Shown piece by piece: positions 27,619 through 48,805 of a DNA stretch of 64,000 bases. The translations under genes and the position numbers were made by a program. Positions within the stretch are counted from its first letter, which is position 1. The number at the start of each line of letters is the position of its first letter. A model generated the notes under the pieces. It was given only the letters and a program-made list of their open reading frames with translations, was not told where the DNA came from and searched no databases. Source of the stretch: Candidatus Rokuibacteriota bacterium (GTDB taxonomy: Bacteria; Methylomirabilota; Methylomirabilia; Rokubacteriales; CSP1-6); the NCBI GenBank assembly GCA_016184125.1, contig JACPDG010000043.1, positions 15,882 to 79,881 of the forward strand. The letters run 5' to 3'.

Positions 27619-29292
27619 TCACTCCTCCACCGGCATCGTGACAGGTTCCCCGGCCCCGTAGAAGTAAGCGCCGCGTCCCGCCGCACCGCCGACGACGGCG
27701 AGCTGGAAGCACCCGGGGTCCTCGACGACCGGGATCGGGACGTCGGGATGGTCGCGCAGCCAGCCGAGCTCGGGATGCGCCGCAGCCATCGCCTTCGGCT
27801 CCTTGTTGAGCGCCAGCGTGCGGAACGGCACGCGGGCCGCCCGGTACATCGCCTGCTGGATCTCGGCCCGGCCCCAGCCTGCGCGCGCGAAGATCTGCGC
27901 GTGCTCGGGGCAGACGAAGAGCGTGTTCTGTTCCTTCTCCTCCGTCCTGGAGCGCGGATCCGCGCGTCGGCCGATGAGCCAGAGCCCCGTGCCGACCTGC
28001 GCCACGTTCGTCGCCGCCGTCGCGTAGACCTGGACCAGGTCCTCGGGCGCGGTCGAGCGGAAGTCGTAGAGCTCGCACATCCCGTAGGCGAAGTGCACCG
28101 TCACCGTGCTCGCGTCCCGTGCGAAGCCCCGCGTGACGTGGTATGGCTCCCACGGGCTCCCGGCCTCGTTCTCGGCGCAGCAGAGGCTGTACTTGAGCGG
28201 CGAGCCGATCGTGTCCATGTCGGACACGCCGACGTACGTGTGTCCGACGTTCATCATCGTGAGCCGCACGGCGCGCCCGAGCACCGTGTTCGACGCCGAG
28301 GGCGCGCCGGGACCGAGCGCGCACAGGCCCGCATTGAGACGGGCGGCGCGGGCACGCGGGCCGTTGGCGAGCACGAGCGGCGCGTGCGGGCCGGTCGACA
28401 TCGCCTTGTTCCTGAGATACATCTTCGGCTCGGCGAGGCAGCGGACCGCGGCGATGAGCAGCGGCAGGTGCTCCGGACCGCAGCCGGCCATGACCGCGCT
28501 GATCGCGAGCTTCTCGACGGTCGCGACACCGAAACCCGGCTCGAGCACGGCGATGGTCTCGCCGGGCGCCCGCTTCGTCCCGGCGAGCATCGCATCCACG
28601 GCACGGCGCGTCGGCGGCACGATGGGAAAGCCGTCCGACCAGCCGCGCGCCAGGAGCTCGCGCTGCATGCGGTCCAGAGCCTCCAGGACATCGTCTCCCT
28701 CGAACGAGAGCACGTCGGGCAGCACCGGGCACACGGGCTCCGAGCGCTCGACCTCGACCGGTCGCGTCAACCCGGCGACGACCTGCTCGACGGCGCCGTC
28801 GACCATCCGGTGAACGTCTTCGGGACGCTGGTTCGTGAACGGCAGCGGGACGACCGCGAGCGGCAGCCCCGGGAGTCCGAAGCTCGCCGCGCTGCGCTCG
28901 GCGTCGTGGACGAACGTCGCGGACGTGAACAGCACGGTCGGGCGGCCGCGCCGCTCGAGCTCGACCATGTCGTGGGCACCCCACGACGTGCACGAGCCTC
29001 AGTCGGCTGTCGTCCCGACGACCGCGTCGACCTCGGCGGCGATCCGGTCGGCGTCTTCCGGCGTGGCGTGCCGCATGATGAATCCGACCGACCCGGTGTA
29101 CCGGCGGAACGTCGTGTCCGGGAACCGCTCGCGCAGGAGCGCTTCGGTGCGGTCGAGCGCCGCGTCGCCGCCGCCCTTCATGTTCCAGTAGAGCCCGACC
29201 GTGAGGCCACGGAGGTCTCGCGGGCGCGGCGCGGGCTTCACCGAGCGCTCGACGGTCGTGGCCACGGGATTCAGGATCTCGACGCGTGCCAT
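27619..29292 (-). CDS. UGSC-family selenoprotein fused in-frame to a ~450-aa C-terminal domain; in-frame TGA (Sec) at 28999-29001
   Basis: Track ORFs 28999-29331 and 27619-28968 share one frame and are separated only by a TGA. Minus-strand read: ...VVGTTAD-TGA-GGC-TCG-TGC = U-G-S-C. AGGAGG ribosome-binding site before the ATG at 29292. SECIS-like hairpin downstream. Confidence 0.7.
28969..28987 (-). promoter_or_regulatory. bacterial SECIS-like hairpin GUCGUGGG-GUG-CCCACGAC, 11 nt downstream of the UGA
   Basis: 8-bp perfect stem, G/U-containing apical loop, spacing typical of bSECIS. Confidence 0.5.
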
Positions 29293-42537: not shown

Positions 42538-43383
42538 TCAGCGCCCCTGAACGAATCGCGCCCTCGAGGGCCGTCCCGGGTTCCGCGGGTGCGTCCGCGC
42601 ACCCCCCGGGACGGCTCCGAGCGCTGGGGGCCGGGGGAGTCCGAGGGGGGCGTCAGCCCCCTTCGTGCGATGGTCGGGGGCCATGTCGGGGCCCCCCATG
42701 ATCTCAGTTCGAGCGACAATCGACCGCCGCGGCGGTCGATTGTCGCTCGAACTCTCAGACGTCACCCCGGCCCGCGTCCCACGACGGCGCACGCGGAACG
42801 CGCGCACCGCGCCGGCCAGGCGCACGCCGAGCAGCACGGCGAGGATGGCCGCGTACACGTACGGCTCGATGCGCCCGACCTTGGCGAGCCACATGAAGTG
42901 CAGCACGCCCAGCACGGCCGCGACGTACACGATGCGGTGGAGCCGGCGCCATGCCCGCGCGCCGAGACGCTTCACCATCCCGGACGTCGACGTCGCGGCG
43001 AGGAGGACGAGCAGCGCGAGCGCCGAGACGCCGACCGTGATGTACGGCCGCTTCACGATGTCCGCGCCCATCTGCGCCCACGCGAAGAAGTGGTCGAGCA
43101 CGACCCAGACGAGGAAGTGCAGCGACACGTAGAAGAACGCGAACAGCCCGAGGAGGCGGCGGAGGATCAGCGGCCAGCCGATGCCGAGCACGAGACGCAG
43201 CGGTGTGAGGGCGAGGCTCGCGAGCAGCATCCGCATGCCCCAGCGACCCAGCGTGTCGGTGACGAAGTCGATGGGGTTCGCGGTCAGGTCGCCCGTCCAC
43301 GCGCGCCAGGCCAGCAGCGCGAGCGGTACCAGGCAAGCGCCCCAGACCAGGGTCTTCAGCAGGATTCGCCCGCGTCGCGTCAC
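42538..43383 (-). CDS. msrQ: MsrQ (heme-binding membrane subunit of the MsrPQ methionine sulfoxide reductase), with ~70-aa repeat-encoded C-terminal extension
   Basis: Six-TM ferric-reductase-like core (FFYVSLHFLVWVVLD...HRIVYVAAVLGVLHFMWL). The ORF stays open through B2 and A13 to a stop at 42538. Confidence 0.75.
   Translation of the reverse strand: MTRRGRILLKTLVWGACLVPLALLAWRAWTGDLTANPIDFVTDTLGRWGMRMLLASLALTPLRLVLGIGWPLILRRLLGLFAFFYVSLHFLVWVVLDHFFAWAQMGADIVKRPYITVGVSALALLVLLAATSTSGMVKRLGARAWRRLHRIVYVAAVLGVLHFMWLAKVGRIEPYVYAAILAVLLGVRLAGAVRAFRVRRRGTRAGVTSESSSDNRPPRRSIVARTEIMGGPDMAPDHRTKGADAPLGLPRPPALGAVPGGARTHPRNPGRPSRARFVQGR
42560..42702 (-). repeat. family A repeat-derived block A13 (two partial reverse copies including the GGGTGCGTCCGCGCACC module)
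   Basis: CCCGGGTTCCGCGGGTGCGTCCGCGCACCCCCCGGG...GGGGGCCATGTCGGGGCCCCCCATGATCTC. Confidence 0.65.
42707..42754. repeat. family B palindrome, copy B2
   Basis: AGTTCGAGCGACAATCGACCGCC-GC-GGCGGTCGATTGTCGCTCGAACT; carries a compensatory C-G change relative to B1 and B4. Confidence 0.8.
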
Positions 43384-43404
43384 GGCTCAGAGCCCGTAAA
43401 GCAA

Positions 43405-44379
43405 TCAGTAGTTCTTCTTGAGATCCATGCCTGCATAGAGCGAGGCCACCTGGTCCGCGTACCCGTTGAACATCAGCGTCTGCCGGCGGCGAAACTCGCC
43501 GATCCGCCGCTCCGTTGCCTGGCTCCACCGGGGGTGGTCCACCGACGGGTGCACGTTCGAGTAGAAGCCGTACTCCCGGGGTTGCGCCTTCGCCCACGCC
43601 GTCTGCGGCTGCTCGCTCACGAGCCGAATCCTGACGATCGACTTCGCGCTCTTGAAGCCGTACTTCCACGGCACCACGACGCGCACGGGCGCGCCGTTCT
43701 GATTCGGCAACACCTTGCCGTACATGCCGACGGTGAGCAGCGCCAGCGGGTGCATCGCCTCGTCGAGCCGGAGCCCCTCGACGTACGGCCAGTCGAGGCC
43801 CGACATGCTGAAGCCGAAGACCCCCTTCTTCTGCGCCGGGAACTGTTCCGGGTCGAGGAGCGTCTGGAACTCCACGAACTTCGCCTGGCCGGTCGGCGCC
43901 ACGCGCTTCAGGAGAGCGGACAGCGGGTAGCCGATCCACGGGATCACCATCGACCAGGCCTCGACGCAGCGGAGCGCGTACACGCGCTCCTCGAGCGGCG
44001 CCAGCCGGAGCAGCTCCTCGATGTCGAACGTCCCGGGCTTCGCGACGTGTCCCTCGACCACGACCTGCCAGGGCCGCGGCTTCAGCGTGCCGGCGAGCCG
44101 CGCGGGATCTTCCTTTTCGACGCCGAACTCGTAGAAGTTGTTGTACGTCGTCGCGGACTCGATCTTCGTCGGCGAATCGGCATGCCGGTACCTCGGGTTC
44201 GGCGCGGCCGGGAGGGCCGCGAGCTGCGACACGGGCGGCGGCGGACCGGCCTCCGCGCGCCCGGGGAACAGCGCGAGCGCGGCGGCGCCGGCGATCAGCT
44301 CGCGCCGGTTGAGATAGAGCCTCTCGTCCGTGACCTCCGACCATCGGAAGCGCGGCGCCTGGCGAATCAGCATCGACAA
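43405..44379 (-). CDS. msrP: MsrP (molybdopterin-dependent protein-methionine sulfoxide reductase catalytic subunit, YedY-like)
   Basis: Tat-type leader ([14 protein letters not shown]); sulfite-oxidase-fold Mo-binding core (YNNFYEFG...[14 protein letters not shown]). Confidence 0.9.
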
Positions 44380-44451: not shown

Positions 44452-45129
44452 TCACACGGCGAAACGGTAGCCCTGCGCGTGGACCGTCTGGATCCACACG
44501 GGATGATCGGGATCGGTCTCGAGCTTCTTCCGGAGCCTGAGCACGTGCGTGTCGACCGTCCGGGTCGTCGGGAACCGCTCGTACCCCCACACCTCGTCGA
44601 GCAGGCGCTCGCGCGTCAGCACGTCGCCACGGTGCTCGACGAGGTGGACGAGGAGATCGAATTCCTTGCGCGTCATCGCGAGCTCGCGTCCCGCCTTGAA
44701 CACGCGGCGAGCGCGCCGGTGGATCCGCACGTCGCCGAACTCCAGGTCCTGCGACTTCTCGCGCGGACCCGGCCGGCGCAGGACGGCGCGCACCCGCGCC
44801 AGCAGCTCCCGCAGGGAGAACGGCTTCGTGACGTAGTCATCGGCGCCGAGCTCGAGGCCCAGCACCCGGTCCATCTCCTCGCCGCGCGCCGAGAGCATGA
44901 TGACGGGCACCTCGATGCCCTTCTTCCTGAGCTCCCGGCACACGTCCCAGCCGCTCATGACGGGCATCATGATGTCGAGGACGACGAGATCCGGCGCCGC
45001 GCTCGCCGCGAGCGCCAGGGCGTCGGCGCCGTTCGTCGCGGTCAGTGTCTCGTATCCCTCGAAGCGCAGATTGTCCTCGAGGCCCCGCACGATCTCCGGC
45101 TCGTCGTCGACGATGAGGATGCGTGGCAT
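44452..45129 (-). CDS. OmpR-family response regulator
   Basis: MPRILIVDDEPEIV...winged-helix C-terminus (YRFAV). Confidence 0.9.
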   Translation of the reverse strand: MPRILIVDDEPEIVRGLEDNLRFEGYETLTATNGADALALAASAAPDLVVLDIMMPVMSGWDVCRELRKKGIEVPVIMLSARGEEMDRVLGLELGADDYVTKPFSLRELLARVRAVLRRPGPREKSQDLEFGDVRIHRRARRVFKAGRELAMTRKEFDLLVHLVEHRGDVLTRERLLDEVWGYERFPTTRTVDTHVLRLRKKLETDPDHPVWIQTVHAQGYRFAV

Positions 45130-45133
45130 CCGG

Positions 45134-46696
45134 CTACCCGTCGGGCTCGGTGTCATCGGAGGCCGGCACGACCGGCGTCGCGGGGAGCCAGAGCGTGAAG
45201 CGGCTGCCGCGTCCCGGCTCGCTCTTCACGGTCACGCGCCCGCCGTGCGCCTCCGCGACGTGGCGGACCAGCGCCAGGCCGACGCCGCTGCCGCGCCGGC
45301 CCTGCGTGTCGCTGCGTCCCACGCGATAGAACTTCTCGAAGATCCGGGACTGCTCCGCCGGCGCGACGCCGATGCCCTCATCCTCCACGCCGATCGCGAG
45401 ATGGTCGCCGACGATCGCGGCCTCGACGTGCAGCACGCGCCGGTCGGCCGAGTACTTGATCGCGTTGTCCACGAGGTTCGCGAGCGCCTGGCGGACGGCG
45501 TCGGCGTCCATCGTCACCTCGCCGAGCTCGGCCGCGACGCGCACGTCGACCTTGAAGCCGCCCTGCGCCAGCGGGTACGCGAACGCCTCGACGGTCTCCC
45601 GGACGAGCGGCTCCACGACCGTGGGCGCCATGTCGTAGCGCCGCCGCCCGCCCTCGATGCGCGAGAAATCGAGCACGTTGTCGATCAGGCGGGACAGGCG
45701 CTCCGTCTCGCGCGTGATCACGCGATAGTACTCCTGGCGCTGGGTCTCGCTGGTGAGCCGGCCCATCTCGAGCGTCTCGCCGAACATGCGGATCACGGAC
45801 AGCGGCGTCTTGAGGTCGTGCGACACGTTCGCGACGAAGTCGGCCTTGAGGCGGGCCATCTCGGTCTCGCGCCGCATGAGCCGCCACGTCGCCGCGATGC
45901 CCGCGACGAGGATCGCCACGAGCACGCCGAACGCGGCCGTGAAGATCGTGACCTGCCGGCGGATCGCGTCGCGCGGCGACCGCCCGGGCTCGGCGTACAT
46001 CGCGACCCGCCAGCGCGGCAGCTCGTCGCCGAACGCGACCGTGGCCACGGGCTCGGCGCCGGTCACCGCCGTGCGCGCGTACACGGTGCGATCCCGGTGG
46101 TCGAGCACGGCGGCGATCGTCGGCGCTTCCAGCCCGCCGAGCGTCTTCGCGAGGACCTCGCGCCGGAGCGCCTCGACGTTGCGGAAAAGCCCCGCGAGCA
46201 CGGGTGCGCCGTCGCGGAGCCGGAGGACCGCGGCCACGAGCACCCGGTCCCCGACGATGATCTGGCGCCGGCCCCCGCGCTCCCACAGCGCGCTCGGCAC
46301 CTCGGCTCGCAGCGTGCCGAACACGCGGGCGTCGTCGTCCCGCCACGCCCCCGGGTAGAGCAGCGCGCCGCCACGGTCGCACACGTAGAGACGGTCGACG
46401 AGCGGCGAGCCGGCGACCAGCGCGTCGAGCGCGGCCGGGTCGCCGGCCGCGGCCCCCACATGCTGCGCGAGCTGCTGGAACAGGTCGTCCTCGGCGTGCC
46501 GCAGCATCATGACGACCTTCTCGGCCGCCATCGACGCCATGTCGCGCGCCTGCTCGCGAAAGAGCAGCTCCGCGGAGCGCTCCCACTGGCGGAGCGACAC
46601 GTACCCGAGCACCGCCACGATCGCGGCCGGGACGGCGATCGCGAGCAGCGCGAACGTCGAGAATCGCCCGAGCGACGCCGCCATGCGCAGGGTCAT
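45134..46696 (-). CDS. sensor histidine kinase with a periplasmic sensor domain
   Basis: Two TM helices flank a ~270-aa extracytoplasmic region; HisKA (ANVSHDLKTPL) plus HATPase_c. ATGA overlap with the upstream redoxin gene. Confidence 0.85.
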   Translation of the reverse strand: MTLRMAASLGRFSTFALLAIAVPAAIVAVLGYVSLRQWERSAELLFREQARDMASMAAEKVVMMLRHAEDDLFQQLAQHVGAAAGDPAALDALVAGSPLVDRLYVCDRGGALLYPGAWRDDDARVFGTLRAEVPSALWERGGRRQIIVGDRVLVAAVLRLRDGAPVLAGLFRNVEALRREVLAKTLGGLEAPTIAAVLDHRDRTVYARTAVTGAEPVATVAFGDELPRWRVAMYAEPGRSPRDAIRRQVTIFTAAFGVLVAILVAGIAATWRLMRRETEMARLKADFVANVSHDLKTPLSVIRMFGETLEMGRLTSETQRQEYYRVITRETERLSRLIDNVLDFSRIEGGRRRYDMAPTVVEPLVRETVEAFAYPLAQGGFKVDVRVAAELGEVTMDADAVRQALANLVDNAIKYSADRRVLHVEAAIVGDHLAIGVEDEGIGVAPAEQSRIFEKFYRVGRSDTQGRRGSGVGLALVRHVAEAHGGRVTVKSEPGRGSRFTLWLPATPVVPASDDTEPDG

Positions 46697-47217
46697 CCGG
46701 ACTCCGCGAGCAGCGTCGTGATCATCGCTTCGGTGTCGGCGTACGCGCCCTCGCCGACGTGCCGATACCGCACCACGCCCCGCTTGTCGACGAGGACGAG
46801 CGTCGGCCACGCCCAGACGCCGTAGCGCTTCCACACGGTGTGGTCGTTGTCCTGCAGCACCGGGTACGGGATCCCGAGCCGCTGGCGCGCGTCGGCGACC
46901 TTGTCCGCCGGCTTCTCCCAGAAGAACTCCGGCGTGTGCACCCCGATGATCGTCAGGCCTCGGCTCGTGTACCGCTCGTGCCAGCCCCGCAACTGCGGGA
47001 TCACGTTTCGACAGTTGATTCACCCGTATGTCCAGAACTCGAGCAGCACCACGCGCCCGCGCATCGCGGCGAGCGTCATGGGCGGCCCCCCGATCCATGG
47101 CCCGGCGGTCAGCTCGGGCGCGACGGCGCCCGGTCGAATCGTCTCTCCGCCGACCACGCCGGGACCGCTCGCGACCCACACGAGCCCGGCGACGGCGGCC
47201 ATCACGATCAGGCGCAT
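46693..47217 (-). CDS. secreted thioredoxin-fold redoxin (TlpA/AhpC-TSA-like) selenoprotein candidate; in-frame TGA at 47020-47022 gives a U-x-x-C redox motif
   Basis: Track ORFs 47020-47217 and 46693-47004 share one frame. Minus-strand read: ...RVVLLEFWTYG-TGA-INCRNVIPQLRGWHERYTSRGLTIIGVHTPEF... Signal peptide at the N-terminus. Confidence 0.7.
46986..46999 (-). promoter_or_regulatory. SECIS-like hairpin CCCGC-AGUU-GCGGG, 20 nt downstream of the UGA (possibly part of a larger CGUG...CACG structure)
   Basis: Short stem with G/U in the loop; weaker than the other two. Confidence 0.35.
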
Positions 47218-47366: not shown

Positions 47367-48035
47367 TCATCCCGCCACGCCGCTCGTCGTCATCGCGCGC
47401 AGGTGTTCGACGAGCATGCGCAACCGATCCGGCGCGGTGCGCCGCAGCGCCTCGACCCGTGACGCGAGCGCGTCGGTCGTCCGAGCGAGATTCCTCGCCA
47501 CCGACTCCGGTGTGCCGAACGTCGCTCCGAGCGATCCCGGATCGACCCGGCTCGTGTAGGCGATGAGCGCGCCGTCGCCAAGCGGCGTGACTCGGAGCGC
47601 GCCCTCCAGCCGCCGCGCGTATCGAGCGGTCAGCAGCGCCCACCGCGCCACCCAGCCGCCGCTCTCGCGCGTAACCGTCAGGGTCACCGTGTAGCGCTCG
47701 TTCGGCCCGGCGATCTCGTACTCGTAGAAGACCCGGAACACGTCGGGCGCCTCGCGTCGGAGCACGCGGCTGACCACCAGGTCAGGAACCCACTCCCGCT
47801 GGCGGGCGACGTCGGCGTAGAGCGCCATGACCTCCGCCGGCGTCGCCGCCGTGCGCCGGTACGCGATGATCTCCGGCCATGGGAAGCCGGGCACCGCCCG
47901 GCGCTCGATCACCGTCTCGCCTCGTTCGACCCGGTGCCGGACGTCGGCGTCGAGCATCGCGTCGGTGTCGGCGCTCGACGCGCCCGCACCCGTCGCCATG
48001 ACGGCGACGAGCGCGAGCGCAGCGAGCGCGTGGTG
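47367..48035 (-). CDS. SRPBCC-superfamily (polyketide cyclase/START-like) protein
   Basis: ...FPWPEIIAYRRTAATPAEVMALYADVARQREWVPDLVVSRVL...YEYEIAGPNERYTVTLTV... Start uncertain (TTG at 48033 or an internal ATG). Confidence 0.55.
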   Translation of the reverse strand, partial: HHALAALALVAVMATGAGASSADTDAMLDADVRHRVERGETVIERRAVPGFPWPEIIAYRRTAATPAEVMALYADVARQREWVPDLVVSRVLRREAPDVFRVFYEYEIAGPNERYTVTLTVTRESGGWVARWALLTARYARRLEGALRVTPLGDGALIAYTSRVDPGSLGATFGTPESVARNLARTTDALASRVEALRRTAPDRLRMLVEHLRAMTTSGVAG

Positions 48036-48048
48036 GAGCAAGACGGCC

Positions 48049-48579
48049 TCAGCTCGCGAATCCCTGCGGGGCGAGCTGGAACGCCTTCGCGAACTTGCTC
48101 GCGAAGGTCTGGTACCCCACGATGAACGTGAGCTCGAGGATCTCCGCCTCCGAGAAGTGCTCGCGGACCCTCGCGTAGCACGCGTCCGACACGTCGCGGT
48201 CGTCCCGCACGATCTCGGTCGCGAACGACAGGGCCGCCCGCTCGCGCTCGGCGAACGCCTCGCTCGTCTCGAACGCGTCGAGCGCGGCGAGCTTCTCGAC
48301 CGGGACACCGGCCTTCACGCCGACGGCGTGACGGATGTCCATTCAGTACGCGGCCCGGTAGAGGCTCGCGACGTGCAGCTGGAGCATCGCGCGGAGCTCG
48401 CGGTCGATCCTGCCGAACCACTCGATCGAGCCCCAGAGCCCGCCGATGCCGAGCATCAGCGGCACGCGGTGGGCCATGATCTTCTCGGGTGTCGGCACGG
48501 CGCCGAAGAGCCGCTCGCCCACCCTGTAGAACGCCCTCACGGCCAGGCCCGGTCGGTCGATCTCGGAGATGCGCTGCAT
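48049..48579 (-). CDS. AhpD-like / carboxymuconolactone decarboxylase (CMD) family selenoprotein candidate; in-frame TGA at 48343-48345
   Basis: Track ORFs 48343-48579 and 48049-48342 are contiguous in one frame. Read: ...LHVASLYRAAY-TGA-MDIRHAVG... aligns with the CMD redox motif (second Cys of CxxC replaced by U, His four residues downstream). C-terminal FSEAEILELTFIVGYQTF is typical of the CMD family. Confidence 0.7.
48316..48330 (-). promoter_or_regulatory. SECIS-like hairpin CACGCC-GUC-GGCGUG, 12 nt downstream of the UGA
   Basis: Perfect 6-bp stem, GUC loop. Confidence 0.45.
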
Positions 48580-48589
48580 GCTGGACCTC

Positions 48590-48805
48590 CTATTTCTTGT
48601 CCATGCCGCCCTTGTCCATCATCGCCTTGTCCTTCTCCATCGTGGTCTTGTCGCCCGGCATCATCCCCTTCTCGCCCTTCATGGTCCCCGCGTCGGACTT
48701 CATCTCCTTCTGCATCATGGCCTCGCCAGACATCGTGCCAGCACATCCGCCGACCGCAACCGCCAGCGCGACACCCGCCACCGCTGCCGTCCATCGCTTC
48801 GTCAT
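48590..48805 (-). CDS. small Met/Lys-rich lipoprotein (71 aa)
   Basis: MTKRWTAAVAGVALAVAVGGC lipobox, then M-x-K/G-rich repeats (EAMMQKEMKSDAGTMKGEKGMMPGDKTTMEKDKAMMDKGGMDKK). Confidence 0.45.
   Translation of the reverse strand: MTKRWTAAVAGVALAVAVGGCAGTMSGEAMMQKEMKSDAGTMKGEKGMMPGDKTTMEKDKAMMDKGGMDKK

What the first reader, a model, noticed from the sequence alone, without database searches (positions are those of the whole stretch)
48049..48579. AhpD-like / carboxymuconolactone-decarboxylase-family selenoprotein candidate with a SECIS-like hairpin
Track ORFs 48343-48579 (78 aa) and 48049-48342 (97 aa) are exactly contiguous in the same frame, with a TGA at 48343-48345 followed immediately by ATG. 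The read is ...LHVASLYRAAY-TGA-MDIRHAVGVKAGVP... This aligns with the CMD/AhpD catalytic signature (...N-G-C-x-Y-C-x-x-x-H...), with the second, resolving/catalytic Cys position occupied by the TGA and the conserved His just downstream. The C-terminal FSEAEILELTFIVGYQTF is typical of the CMD family. A perfect hairpin, CACGCC-GUC-GGCGUG (48316-48330), starts 12 nt after the UGA. AhpD-like is a known bacterial selenoprotein family. The gene is followed 13 nt later by an SRPBCC-fold gene on the same strand.
Basis: partly seen in the sequence, partly recalled or inferred. Interest (0 to 1): 0.8.

Follow-up and report, generated by a model that had tools for sequence, protein, structure and literature searches.

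The report
Selenocysteine AhpD-like redox protein gene
The two adjacent small ORFs are one gene for an AhpD-like redox protein whose active-site cysteine is replaced by UGA-encoded selenocysteine. This kind of selenoprotein is already known; public annotation truncates this one to its second half.

Summary
On the minus strand a 78-codon ORF, a TGA (48345..48343) and a 97-codon ORF lie in one frame, and a perfect 6-bp hairpin starts 12 nt after the TGA.

Evidence that the TGA encodes selenocysteine:
- The same in-frame TGA is present in 44 of 44 orthologues, mostly Methylomirabilota/Rokubacteria MAGs, at 53-96% protein identity. Both halves are under coding constraint.
- Full-length homologues (23-40% identity) carry the second Cys of a CxxC motif exactly at the TGA position.
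- The joined protein matches Pfam CMD only when joined. A close orthologue (TGA read as Trp) models as a single AhpD-like domain (pLDDT 95, TM 0.87 to solved AhpD-like structures).
- Synonymous sites are frozen only in the hairpin stem codons, and one stem pair covaries (A-U, G-U, G-C) through amino-acid changes. This fits a bacterial SECIS.

Two more in-frame-TGA genes of known selenoprotein families lie in the window: a redoxin (UxxC) and a UGSC-family gene.

The Sec machinery could not be checked.

Verdict: a genuine but unsurprising new member of the AhpD-like selenoproteins, set in an MsrPQ/redoxin/two-component cluster.

The parts
48049..48579 (-). Complete AhpD-like/CMD selenoprotein gene: 175 sense codons plus one Sec codon; terminal stop TGA 48051..48049
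   Evidence: Orthologues are conserved on both sides of the TGA. A close orthologue gives a single-domain AlphaFold model with pLDDT 95 and TM 0.85-0.87 to AhpD-like PDB structures over about 175 columns.
48343..48345 (-). In-frame UGA read as selenocysteine (residue 79)
   Evidence: TGA in 44 of 44 orthologues. It aligns with the second Cys of CxxC, which is at least 90% conserved in 33 full-length homologues, and with the second Cys of C-A-Y-C in PA0269.
48316..48330 (-). SECIS-like hairpin: 6-bp stem CACGCC/GGCGUG with loop GUC, 12 nt after the UGA. An optional seventh U-A pair sits at 48331/48315.
   Evidence: Five stem pairs are invariant. Pair 17-29 is AU in 34, GC in 6, GU in 3 and unpaired in 1. 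Third-base entropy is 0.16, 0 and 0 bits at stem codons Ala+6, Gly+8 and Val+9, against 0.9-1.9 bits at the other conserved four-fold codons; the loop codon has 1.52 bits.
48586..48590 (-). Shine-Dalgarno GGAGG, 6 nt upstream of the ATG at 48579. No comparable motif precedes the internal ATG at 48342.
   Evidence: Read directly from the sequence.
48178..48180 (-). Cys134 (motif VSDxC), a family-specific Cys and candidate resolving residue
   Evidence: Cys in 38 of 44 orthologues. Absent from the Cys-type homologues. Its proximity to Sec was not measured.
48590..48805 (-). Met/Lys-rich small lipoprotein gene immediately upstream (lipobox AVGGC)
   Evidence: Translation. Similar Met-rich small proteins lie upstream of orthologues in L004, L011, L045, L052 and L054. 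No Pfam or NCBIfam hit.
47367..48041 (-). SRPBCC (Polyketide_cyc2) gene with a signal-peptide-like N-terminus
   Evidence: Present downstream in L005, L006, L009 and L037.
46693..47217 (-). Second selenoprotein gene: exported AhpC/TSA-redoxin (ResA/TlpA-like) with FWTYG-U-INC. UGA at 47022..47020; hairpin CCCGC-AGUU-GCGGG at 46999..46986.
   Evidence: The TGA and hairpin are conserved in L003, L009, L019, L041 and L043; the TGA is also present in L052 and L054.
44452..46684 (-). Histidine kinase (46684..45134) and OmpR-type response regulator (45156..44452)
   Evidence: Syntenic with the redoxin-Sec gene in L003, L009, L019, L041, L043, L045, L052 and L054.
42538..44379 (-). MsrP (44379..43405) and MsrQ (43383..42538), the periplasmic methionine sulfoxide reductase
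   Evidence: tblastn gives 73% and 62% identity to the L054 genes. Those genes pass the NCBIfam equivalog cut-offs for MsrP (475 bits against 207) and MsrQ (167 against 130).

Best explanation
Window 48579..48049 (minus strand) is one gene for a 176-residue cytoplasmic protein with an AhpD-like (carboxymuconolactone-decarboxylase, COG2128/YciW-related) fold. Residue 79 is selenocysteine.

Decoding (inferred from the E. coli fdhF paradigm). Translation starts at the ATG behind a GGAGG. At UGA 48345..48343, SelB carrying Sec-tRNA(Sec) is recruited by the 15-nt hairpin 12 nt downstream (loop GUN), and Sec is inserted instead of termination.

Chemistry (inferred). Sec sits at the N-terminus of a helix, at the position of the second Cys of the family's CxxC motif. 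From my memory of M. tuberculosis AhpD, this is the nucleophilic Cys133. The protein is therefore most likely a selenol-based oxidoreductase that reduces an oxidised substrate (peroxide, sulfenic acid or disulfide) and forms a selenenic acid or selenenylsulfide. Because the first Cys of the motif is missing, recycling must use another thiol: the family-specific Cys134, a partner protein, or a small thiol.

Physiology (inferred). The gene's recurrent neighbours are a Met-rich lipoprotein, MsrPQ, a Sec-containing periplasmic redoxin and a two-component system. This suggests a role in an oxidative-stress and methionine-oxidation defence cluster.

What is shown: the gene is one unit, the UGA and hairpin are under selection, Cys homologues exist, the fold is AhpD-like, and the neighbourhood recurs. 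What is inferred: SelB-dependent decoding, the chemistry, the partners and the physiological role.
For: - One frame with an in-frame TGA.
- Pfam CMD (23.9 bits, residues 51-122) and NCBIfam NF053654 'YciW-related (seleno)protein' (E = 1.8e-30) match only the joined protein.
- Of 1040 database relatives, the listed top hits are almost all 97-110 aa fragments starting at MDIRHAVG. The two 'full-length' JGI calls carry W where the DNA has TGA.
- TGA is present in 44 of 44 orthologues. Identity to the window protein is similar in the N-half (64%) and C-half (69%), and nucleotide divergence is highest at the third codon position in both halves.
- Cys is at least 90% conserved at the aligned position in 33 full-length homologues and present in PA0269 and Bmp8.
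- Stem-specific freezing of synonymous sites and A-U/G-U/G-C covariation.
- TGA is also the true terminator of this gene in the window and in 25 of 43 orthologues, so TGA is not a general sense codon.
- AlphaFold model with pLDDT 95 and Sec at a helix N-terminus; TM 0.85-0.87 to AhpD-like structures.
- Two further in-frame-TGA genes of known selenoprotein families in the same window.
- Methylomirabilota are reported as selenoprotein-rich (PMC13188914; PMC13582414).
- Neighbourhood.
Against: - No selA, selB, selD or tRNA-Sec lies in the 64-kb window or the fetched flanks, and the rest of the genome is not available.
- In the single sequence the hairpin is not more stable than shuffles, and about 5% of TGAs have such a hairpin by chance.
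- Covariation rests on one pair and probably few independent events.
- The Pfam score barely passes its cut-off, and the NCBIfam selenoprotein model is far below its cut-off (106 against 310).
- The first Cys of the described CxxU motif and the canonical AhpD His are absent, so AhpD-type chemistry is not assured.
- The candidate resolving Cys134 is missing in 6 of 44 orthologues.
- The genomic context is not conserved across the whole family (for example L053). The protein has no signal peptide while MsrP and the redoxin are periplasmic, so a direct partnership is doubtful.
Confidence: 0.9

Rival explanations
1. Two separate small genes. Translation terminates at the UGA and re-initiates at the adjacent AUG (UGA-AUG coupling), and the two polypeptides assemble into a split CMD domain without the active-site residue.
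For: The codon after the TGA is ATG in 41 of 44 orthologues and GTG in 2. Gene callers and NCBI annotate the 97-aa half as a protein.
Against: - One orthologue (L034) has ATC after the TGA.
- There is no Shine-Dalgarno before the internal ATG, whereas GGAGG precedes the first ATG.
- Cys-type homologues have a hydrophobic residue, including Met, at that position as part of a continuous helix.
- The split would delete exactly the conserved redox Cys.
- The stem-specific synonymous constraint 12 nt downstream fits a SECIS, not re-initiation.
Confidence: 0.04
2. The UGA is read through or recoded as a standard amino acid (Trp, Cys or Gly), by near-cognate decoding or an alternative genetic code, as the JGI gene calls with W imply.
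For: JGI products P0001 and P0002 contain W at this site. The Sec machinery was not seen in the window.
Against: - TGA is used as the real terminator of this very gene, in the window and in 25 of 43 orthologues, so the code is standard.
- The aligned residue in homologues is a redox Cys, the classic Sec/Cys pair.
- A conserved hairpin lies at SECIS distance.
- The phylum is documented to use Sec.
Confidence: 0.04
3. A pseudogene or an assembly/sequencing error created a premature stop.
For: A single in-frame stop in one MAG contig could be an error.
Against: The same TGA occurs in 44 independent assemblies spanning 53-96% protein identity, with purifying selection on both halves.
Confidence: 0.01

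Closest known systems
AhpD-like selenoproteins (COG2128 'AhpD-like 1'; also 'AhpD-like 2'/CMD-domain, PF02627) from the Sargasso Sea and GOS selenoproteomes
   Same: Same fold family. JGI names the fragments 'alkylhydroperoxidase family enzyme'. Sec occupies the second position of the CxxC-derived motif. A neighbouring Prx-like selenoprotein gene was also reported for AhpD-like 2 (PMC2398784; PMC1088965).
   Different: All described families have CxxU. Here the first position is S, V, A, M or T and never Cys, so the Sec stands alone. The family is essentially confined to Methylomirabilota/Rokubacteria, from soil and groundwater rather than marine samples.
NCBIfam NF053654 GroundWater_YciW, 'YciW-related (seleno)protein'
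   Same: Best NCBIfam match, aligned end to end (residues 14-172 to profile positions 16-174 of 179), E = 1.8e-30. It is also the best match of the Cys-type homologues.
   Different: The score is 106 bits against a cut-off of 310, so this is not a member of that equivalog. NCBI's pipeline would not name it, and the public record carries only the 97-aa fragment.
Mycobacterium tuberculosis AhpD (CxxCxxxH; 1lw1) and Pseudomonas aeruginosa PA0269/AhpD (2ijc, 2o4d, 7xw1)
   Same: All-helical AhpD fold. Sec aligns with the second Cys of C-A-Y-C in PA0269. TM to target is 0.91-0.94 for PA0269.
   Different: The first Cys is absent. The canonical His (Cys+4) is Arg in this family. Identity is 16-23%. 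M. tuberculosis AhpD itself is only a weak fold match (rank 50).
Bmp8 tetrabromopyrrole debrominase (6ohi, 6ohj)
   Same: Joint-best sequence and fold match among solved structures over the full length (E about 3e-9; TMq 0.87). It is a CMD-family thiol enzyme with a CxxC motif.
   Different: 18% identity. There are no halogenation or bmp genes nearby. Any dehalogenase activity here is pure speculation.
Escherichia coli fdhF-type bacterial SECIS
   Same: A short apical hairpin about 11-12 nt after the UGA, with G (and U) at the start of the loop. [quoted passage not shown] The fdhF details are from my own knowledge.
   Different: Only 6 bp with a 3-nt loop. No conserved bulged U, and no well-supported lower stem (67% of cells paired). 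SelB binding is untested.

Membership tests
Bacterial selenoprotein gene (Sec-UGA) | In-frame UGA conserved among orthologues, with coding conservation on both sides | tested here: met
   44 of 44 orthologues have TGA. N-half and C-half identity to the window protein are 64% and 69%, and nucleotide divergence is highest at the third codon position in both halves.
Bacterial selenoprotein gene (Sec-UGA) | Homologues with Cys at the position aligned to the UGA | tested here: met
   The second Cys of CxxC is at least 90% conserved in 33 full-length homologues. PA0269 and Bmp8 also have Cys there.
Bacterial selenoprotein gene (Sec-UGA) | SECIS stem-loop shortly downstream of the UGA, with G in the apical loop, under selection | tested here: met
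   Hairpin 12 nt after the UGA with loop GUN. Stem-only synonymous freezing and one covarying pair. On the single sequence alone this would be inconclusive.
Bacterial selenoprotein gene (Sec-UGA) | selA, selB, selC (tRNA-Sec) and selD in the same genome | not testable with these tools
   None found in the 64-kb window or fetched flanks. Indirect support: two more Sec-type genes in the window, and Sec use is reported for the phylum.
Bacterial selenoprotein gene (Sec-UGA) | Selenium demonstrated in the protein | not testable with these tools
   Needs 75Se labelling or mass spectrometry.
Pfam CMD / AhpD-like fold (PF02627) | Significant match to the family model and the AhpD-like all-helical fold | tested here: met
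   23.9 bits against the gathering score of 23, spanning the stop. Model pLDDT 95. TM 0.85-0.87 to 2pfx, 6ohj, 3c1l and 6k40.
Canonical AhpD (M. tuberculosis type) | CxxCxxxH active-site signature | tested here: not met
   The first Cys is replaced by S, V, A, M or T. The position aligned to the canonical His is Arg. The nearby His is at +5 and is Arg in 9 of 44 orthologues.
Described AhpD-like / CMD selenoprotein families | CxxU redox motif | tested here: not met
   U is at the expected second position, but U-3 is never Cys in 44 sequences. The motif is given as CxxU in PMC1088965, PMC2398784 and PMC13188914.
NCBIfam NF053654 GroundWater_YciW (seleno)protein | Score at or above the curated equivalog cut-off (310 bits) | tested here: not met
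   106 bits.

The most novel reading that the evidence does not exclude
The gene belongs to a previously undescribed selenium-dependent envelope oxidative-stress module of Methylomirabilota. The module would comprise a Met-rich decoy lipoprotein, a lone-Sec AhpD-like protein, a Sec-containing TlpA/ResA-like redoxin and MsrPQ, all under a dedicated two-component system. In it, a one-selenol AhpD-like enzyme without a resolving Cys or the catalytic His would work by a mechanism distinct from CxxC/CxxU AhpD proteins. For example, it might act as a peroxide or methionine-sulfoxide-linked reductase recycled by an external thiol. Less likely, it could be a Bmp8/deiodinase-like reductive dehalogenase.
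Probability: 0.15. Interest if true: 0.55.

Novelty: new member of a known kind. Interest (0 to 1): 0.35.

Why it matters
- Annotation. It corrects a systematic error. Of 1040 database relatives, the listed top hits are almost all truncated about 97-aa entries of this family (including the NCBI record for this very gene), or mistranslated with Trp, because the Sec codon is not recognised and no curated model reaches its cut-off.
- Catalogue. It adds a well-supported clade, with comparative SECIS evidence, to the selenoproteome of a phylum recently reported to hold the largest bacterial selenoproteomes.
- Biochemistry. The lone-Sec active site and the recurring linkage to MsrPQ, a Sec-redoxin and a Met-rich lipoprotein give a testable hypothesis about selenium use in envelope oxidative-stress defence.
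- Limits. It does not change what is known about how Sec is decoded or about the AhpD-like family in general.

Tried and rejected
- Rfam and ARAGORN on the whole window found nothing. There is no tRNA-Sec here, and no RNA-family match of any kind.
- Single-sequence folding was not significant.
- An extended lower SECIS stem (alignment columns 6-14 with 36-43) is only 67% paired with no useful covariation, so I rejected it as part of the element.
- The 'full-length' database homologues P0001 and P0002 looked like possible Trp or Cys orthologues. Their DNA has TGA.
- The distant half-length hits P0212 and P0219 looked like a possible second Sec clade. They are truncated gene calls with TGC.
- tblastn with E. 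coli SelA, SelB and SelD against the window and all loci found nothing.
- ORF clustering to find neighbours conserved across the family was too noisy in this GC-rich DNA. Apart from out-of-frame ORFs overlapping the gene, it recovered only clade-restricted neighbours.
- The response regulator is a generic OmpR/PhoB-family protein (HprR is only one of many sub-cut-off matches) and HprS is not among the kinase's listed matches, so I make no claim of HprSR orthology.
- A literature search for Bmp8 found nothing in the held library.
- The distance between Sec and Cys134 in the model could not be measured, because coordinates are not returned.

Full report
**Observation**

On the minus strand, ORF 48579..48346 (78 aa) and ORF 48342..48052 (97 aa) are in one frame, separated only by TGA 48345..48343. 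The read is ...LHVASLYRAAY-TGA-MDIRHAVGVKAGVP.... A perfect hairpin CACGCC-GTC-GGCGTG lies at 48330..48316, 12 nt after the TGA. A GGAGG sits 6 nt upstream of the first ATG (48579). Nothing comparable precedes the internal ATG.

In this one sequence the hairpin is weak evidence. The local fold has z = -0.61 against shuffles. About 5% of all TGA trinucleotides in this GC-rich window are followed by a perfect 6-bp hairpin at a similar distance.

**One gene, not two**

- Only the joined protein (U replaced by C) matches Pfam CMD, at 23.9 bits against a gathering score of 23, over residues 51-122 and across the stop. Each half alone matches nothing relevant.
- The joined protein also matches NCBIfam NF053654 'YciW-related (seleno)protein' end to end (E = 1.8e-30), though at 106 bits against a cut-off of 310.
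- A close orthologue, modelled with a 45-sequence alignment, folds as one compact all-helical domain (pLDDT 95, pTM 0.89). The UGA-encoded residue lies at the N-terminus of helix 77-89.
- That model superposes over about 175 columns on solved AhpD-like proteins 2pfx, Bmp8 6ohi/6ohj, 3c1l and 6k40 (TMq 0.85-0.87), and on PA0269 (TM to target 0.91).

**Conservation of the UGA**

- A protein search returned 1040 relatives. The listed top hits are almost all 97-110 aa fragments starting at MDIRHAVG. They include a 100% identical NCBI entry from a Candidatus Rokubacteria MAG, annotated as a 97-aa 'carboxymuconolactone decarboxylase family protein'.
- The two apparently full-length JGI proteins have W at the site, but their DNA has TGA.
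- A scan of GTDB species representatives gave 45 loci, nearly all Methylomirabilota/Rokubacteria. In all 42 loci where the site is present, plus the two JGI contigs, the codon is TGA and the upstream 72-78 residues are conserved in frame.
- Pairwise protein identity in the family is 53-96%. Identity to the window protein is 64% in the N-half and 69% in the C-half. Nucleotide divergence is highest at the third codon position in both halves.
- TGA is also the true terminator of this gene in the window and in 25 of 43 orthologues, so TGA is not a general sense codon here.

**Sec/Cys pair**

- Exhaustive HMMER against 1.8 billion cluster representatives found full-length homologues of 180-200 aa only at 40% identity or below.
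- In an alignment of 33 of them, the motif is G-C-x-(F/W/Y)-C-x-D. Its second Cys is at least 90% conserved and falls exactly on the UGA.
- PA0269 (C-A-Y-C) and Bmp8 align in the same way.
- In the Sec family the first Cys position is S (20), V (17), A (5), M (1) or T (1), and never Cys.
- The position aligned to the canonical AhpD His is Arg.
- A family-specific Cys (VSDxC, residue 134) is present in 38 of 44 orthologues and absent from the Cys-type homologues. Those homologues instead carry an extra C-terminal GF..C..P Cys.

**SECIS evidence**

In the 44-sequence alignment of the 63 nt from the UGA, five of the six stem pairs are invariant. The sixth is A-U in 34, G-C in 6, G-U in 3 and unpaired in 1. 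Its changes are non-synonymous on both sides (His to Arg, Val to Ala), so pairing is kept at the cost of amino-acid changes.

The stronger test is at synonymous sites:

| Codon class | Third-base entropy (bits) |
|---|---|
| About 50 conserved four-fold codons across the gene | 0.9-1.9 |
| Ala+6 (GCC in 43 of 44), stem | 0.16 |
| Gly+8 (GGC in 44 of 44), stem | 0 |
| Val+9 (GTG in 37 of 37), stem | 0 |
| Val+7, loop | 1.52 |
| Arg+4, just 5' of the stem | 1.66 |

The stem-forming third base of codon +5 is also invariant: CAC in all 35 sequences with His and CGC in all 9 with Arg.

A longer lower stem is not supported (67% paired). The position (12 nt after the UGA) and the loop (G, then U in 43 of 44) fit what I know of the minimal E. 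coli fdhF SECIS. They also fit the conserved apical-loop G highlighted in published bacterial SECIS predictions.

**Support for Sec decoding in this genome**

- No tRNA, Rfam family, or SelA, SelB or SelD homologue is in the window or the fetched flanks. The rest of the genome cannot be reached, so the machinery is untested.
- Indirect support is good. A second gene 1 kb downstream (47217..46693) reads FWTYG-TGA-INC and is an exported AhpC/TSA-redoxin (ResA/TlpA-like). Its TGA and a CCCGC-AGUU-GCGGG hairpin 20 nt downstream are conserved in five syntenic loci; two further loci (L052, L054) also carry the TGA.
- A third gene (about 29292..27619) reads ...TTAD-TGA-GSCTSW and matches NCBIfam 'UGSC family (seleno)protein' (E = 3e-29).
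- A 2026 review cites a Methylomirabilota MAG predicted to hold 63 selenoprotein genes (PMC13188914). Sec-type [NiFeSe] hydrogenases are also reported from the phylum (PMC13582414).

**Context and likely role**

The window's minus strand carries, in order:
1. fumarate hydratase alpha and beta subunits
2. a Met/Lys-rich lipoprotein
3. the AhpD-like Sec gene
4. a secreted SRPBCC protein
5. the Sec-redoxin
6. a histidine kinase
7. an OmpR-type response regulator
8. MsrP and MsrQ

In L052, L054 and L045 the order is Met-rich small protein, AhpD-like Sec gene, MsrP, MsrQ, Sec-redoxin, then kinase and regulator (regulator beyond the fetched flank in L045). A Cys-type homologue (L048) is followed 3 nt later by a DsbE-like redoxin. 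The context is not universal: L053 differs, and many other loci lack these genes within 3 kb.

The protein has no signal peptide, while the redoxin, MsrP and the lipoprotein are extracytoplasmic. The link is therefore probably at the level of a stress regulon rather than direct contact. My best mechanistic reading is a selenol-based AhpD-like reductase or peroxidase whose selenenic acid or selenenylsulfide is resolved by Cys134 or by an external thiol. This is inference.

**Comparison with what is known, and verdict**

AhpD-like (COG2128) and CMD-domain selenoproteins have been known since 2005. All are described with a CxxU motif, and an AhpD-like gene next to a Prx-like selenoprotein gene has been noted.

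This clade meets the criteria for a selenoprotein gene and for the AhpD-like fold. It fails the CxxU and CxxCxxxH signatures and the cut-off of the nearest curated model. It is therefore a distinct lone-Sec subfamily rather than a member of a named family.

I could not check whether recent catalogues (BSepDB, Deng et al. 2026) already list it. I rate it a new member of a known kind: real, well supported, useful for annotation, and only moderately interesting.

Noticed in passing
window 46693-47217 (minus); TGA 47020-47022; hairpin 46986-46999: A second selenoprotein gene: an exported AhpC/TSA-redoxin (ResA/TlpA-like) reading FWTYG-U-INC. The TGA and a CCCGC-AGUU-GCGGG hairpin 20 nt downstream are conserved in L003, L009, L019, L041 and L043; L052 and L054 also carry the TGA. 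Gene callers split it into pieces of about 65 aa and about 103 aa.
   Followed up: partly
window about 27619-29292 (minus); TGA 28999-29001: A third in-frame-TGA gene: ...AVVGTTAD-U-GSCTSW... It matches NCBIfam NF041046 'UGSC family (seleno)protein' (E = 3e-29; 102 bits against a cut-off of 125). The frame continues for about 380 more residues with no family hit, which may be an unusual fusion. SECIS and orthologues were not examined.
   Followed up: partly
window 48590-48805 (minus); L054:4560-4745; L052:3693-3971: A small Met/Lys-rich lipoprotein or secreted protein (13-20% Met, repeats such as KEMMK and GMMP) lies directly upstream of the AhpD-like Sec gene in several genomes. It has no Pfam or NCBIfam hit. 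Its position beside MsrPQ suggests a sacrificial methionine-rich target or a metal binder.
   Followed up: partly
window 42538-44379 (minus): MsrP and MsrQ (periplasmic methionine sulfoxide reductase) lie directly downstream of the response regulator. In L045, L052 and L054 they sit instead between the AhpD-like Sec gene and the Sec-redoxin. The same gene set is therefore shuffled within one cluster.
   Followed up: partly
L052:4186-4713: Another in-frame TGA in a signal-peptide-bearing peroxiredoxin-like gene (…HFYLGDFLRA-TGA-EADL…, at the position of the peroxidatic Cys), just upstream of the AhpD-like Sec gene. That locus therefore carries three Sec-type genes within 4 kb.
   Followed up: no
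L045:4990-5340: The redoxin copy in this locus lacks the active-site segment (…VEFW|NVIPQLRAW…, with TYG-U-INC deleted). It may be a decaying or repurposed copy.
   Followed up: no
L001:529-1095, L002:655-1185 (proteins P0001, P0002): JGI gene calls translate the Sec-TGA as Trp, as if under genetic code 4, on short contigs. This produces 'full-length' proteins with a false W in public protein sets.
   Followed up: yes
L007, L011, L013, L030, L032, L046: Orthologues sit in MAGs labelled Deltaproteobacteria, Planctomycetales, Actinobacteria, Acidobacteriota, Verrucomicrobiia and Gemmatimonadales. L013 ('Actinobacteria') appears identical to L012 (Rokubacteria) in the compared stretches around the TGA. 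This points to mis-binning, or possibly horizontal transfer.
   Followed up: no
L048:11-1047: A Cys-type homologue (RFCVDIN…) is followed 3 nt later by a membrane-anchored DsbE/CcmG-like redoxin (WCGPC). The pairing of this CMD clade with periplasmic thioredoxin-fold proteins therefore also occurs outside the Sec family.
   Followed up: no
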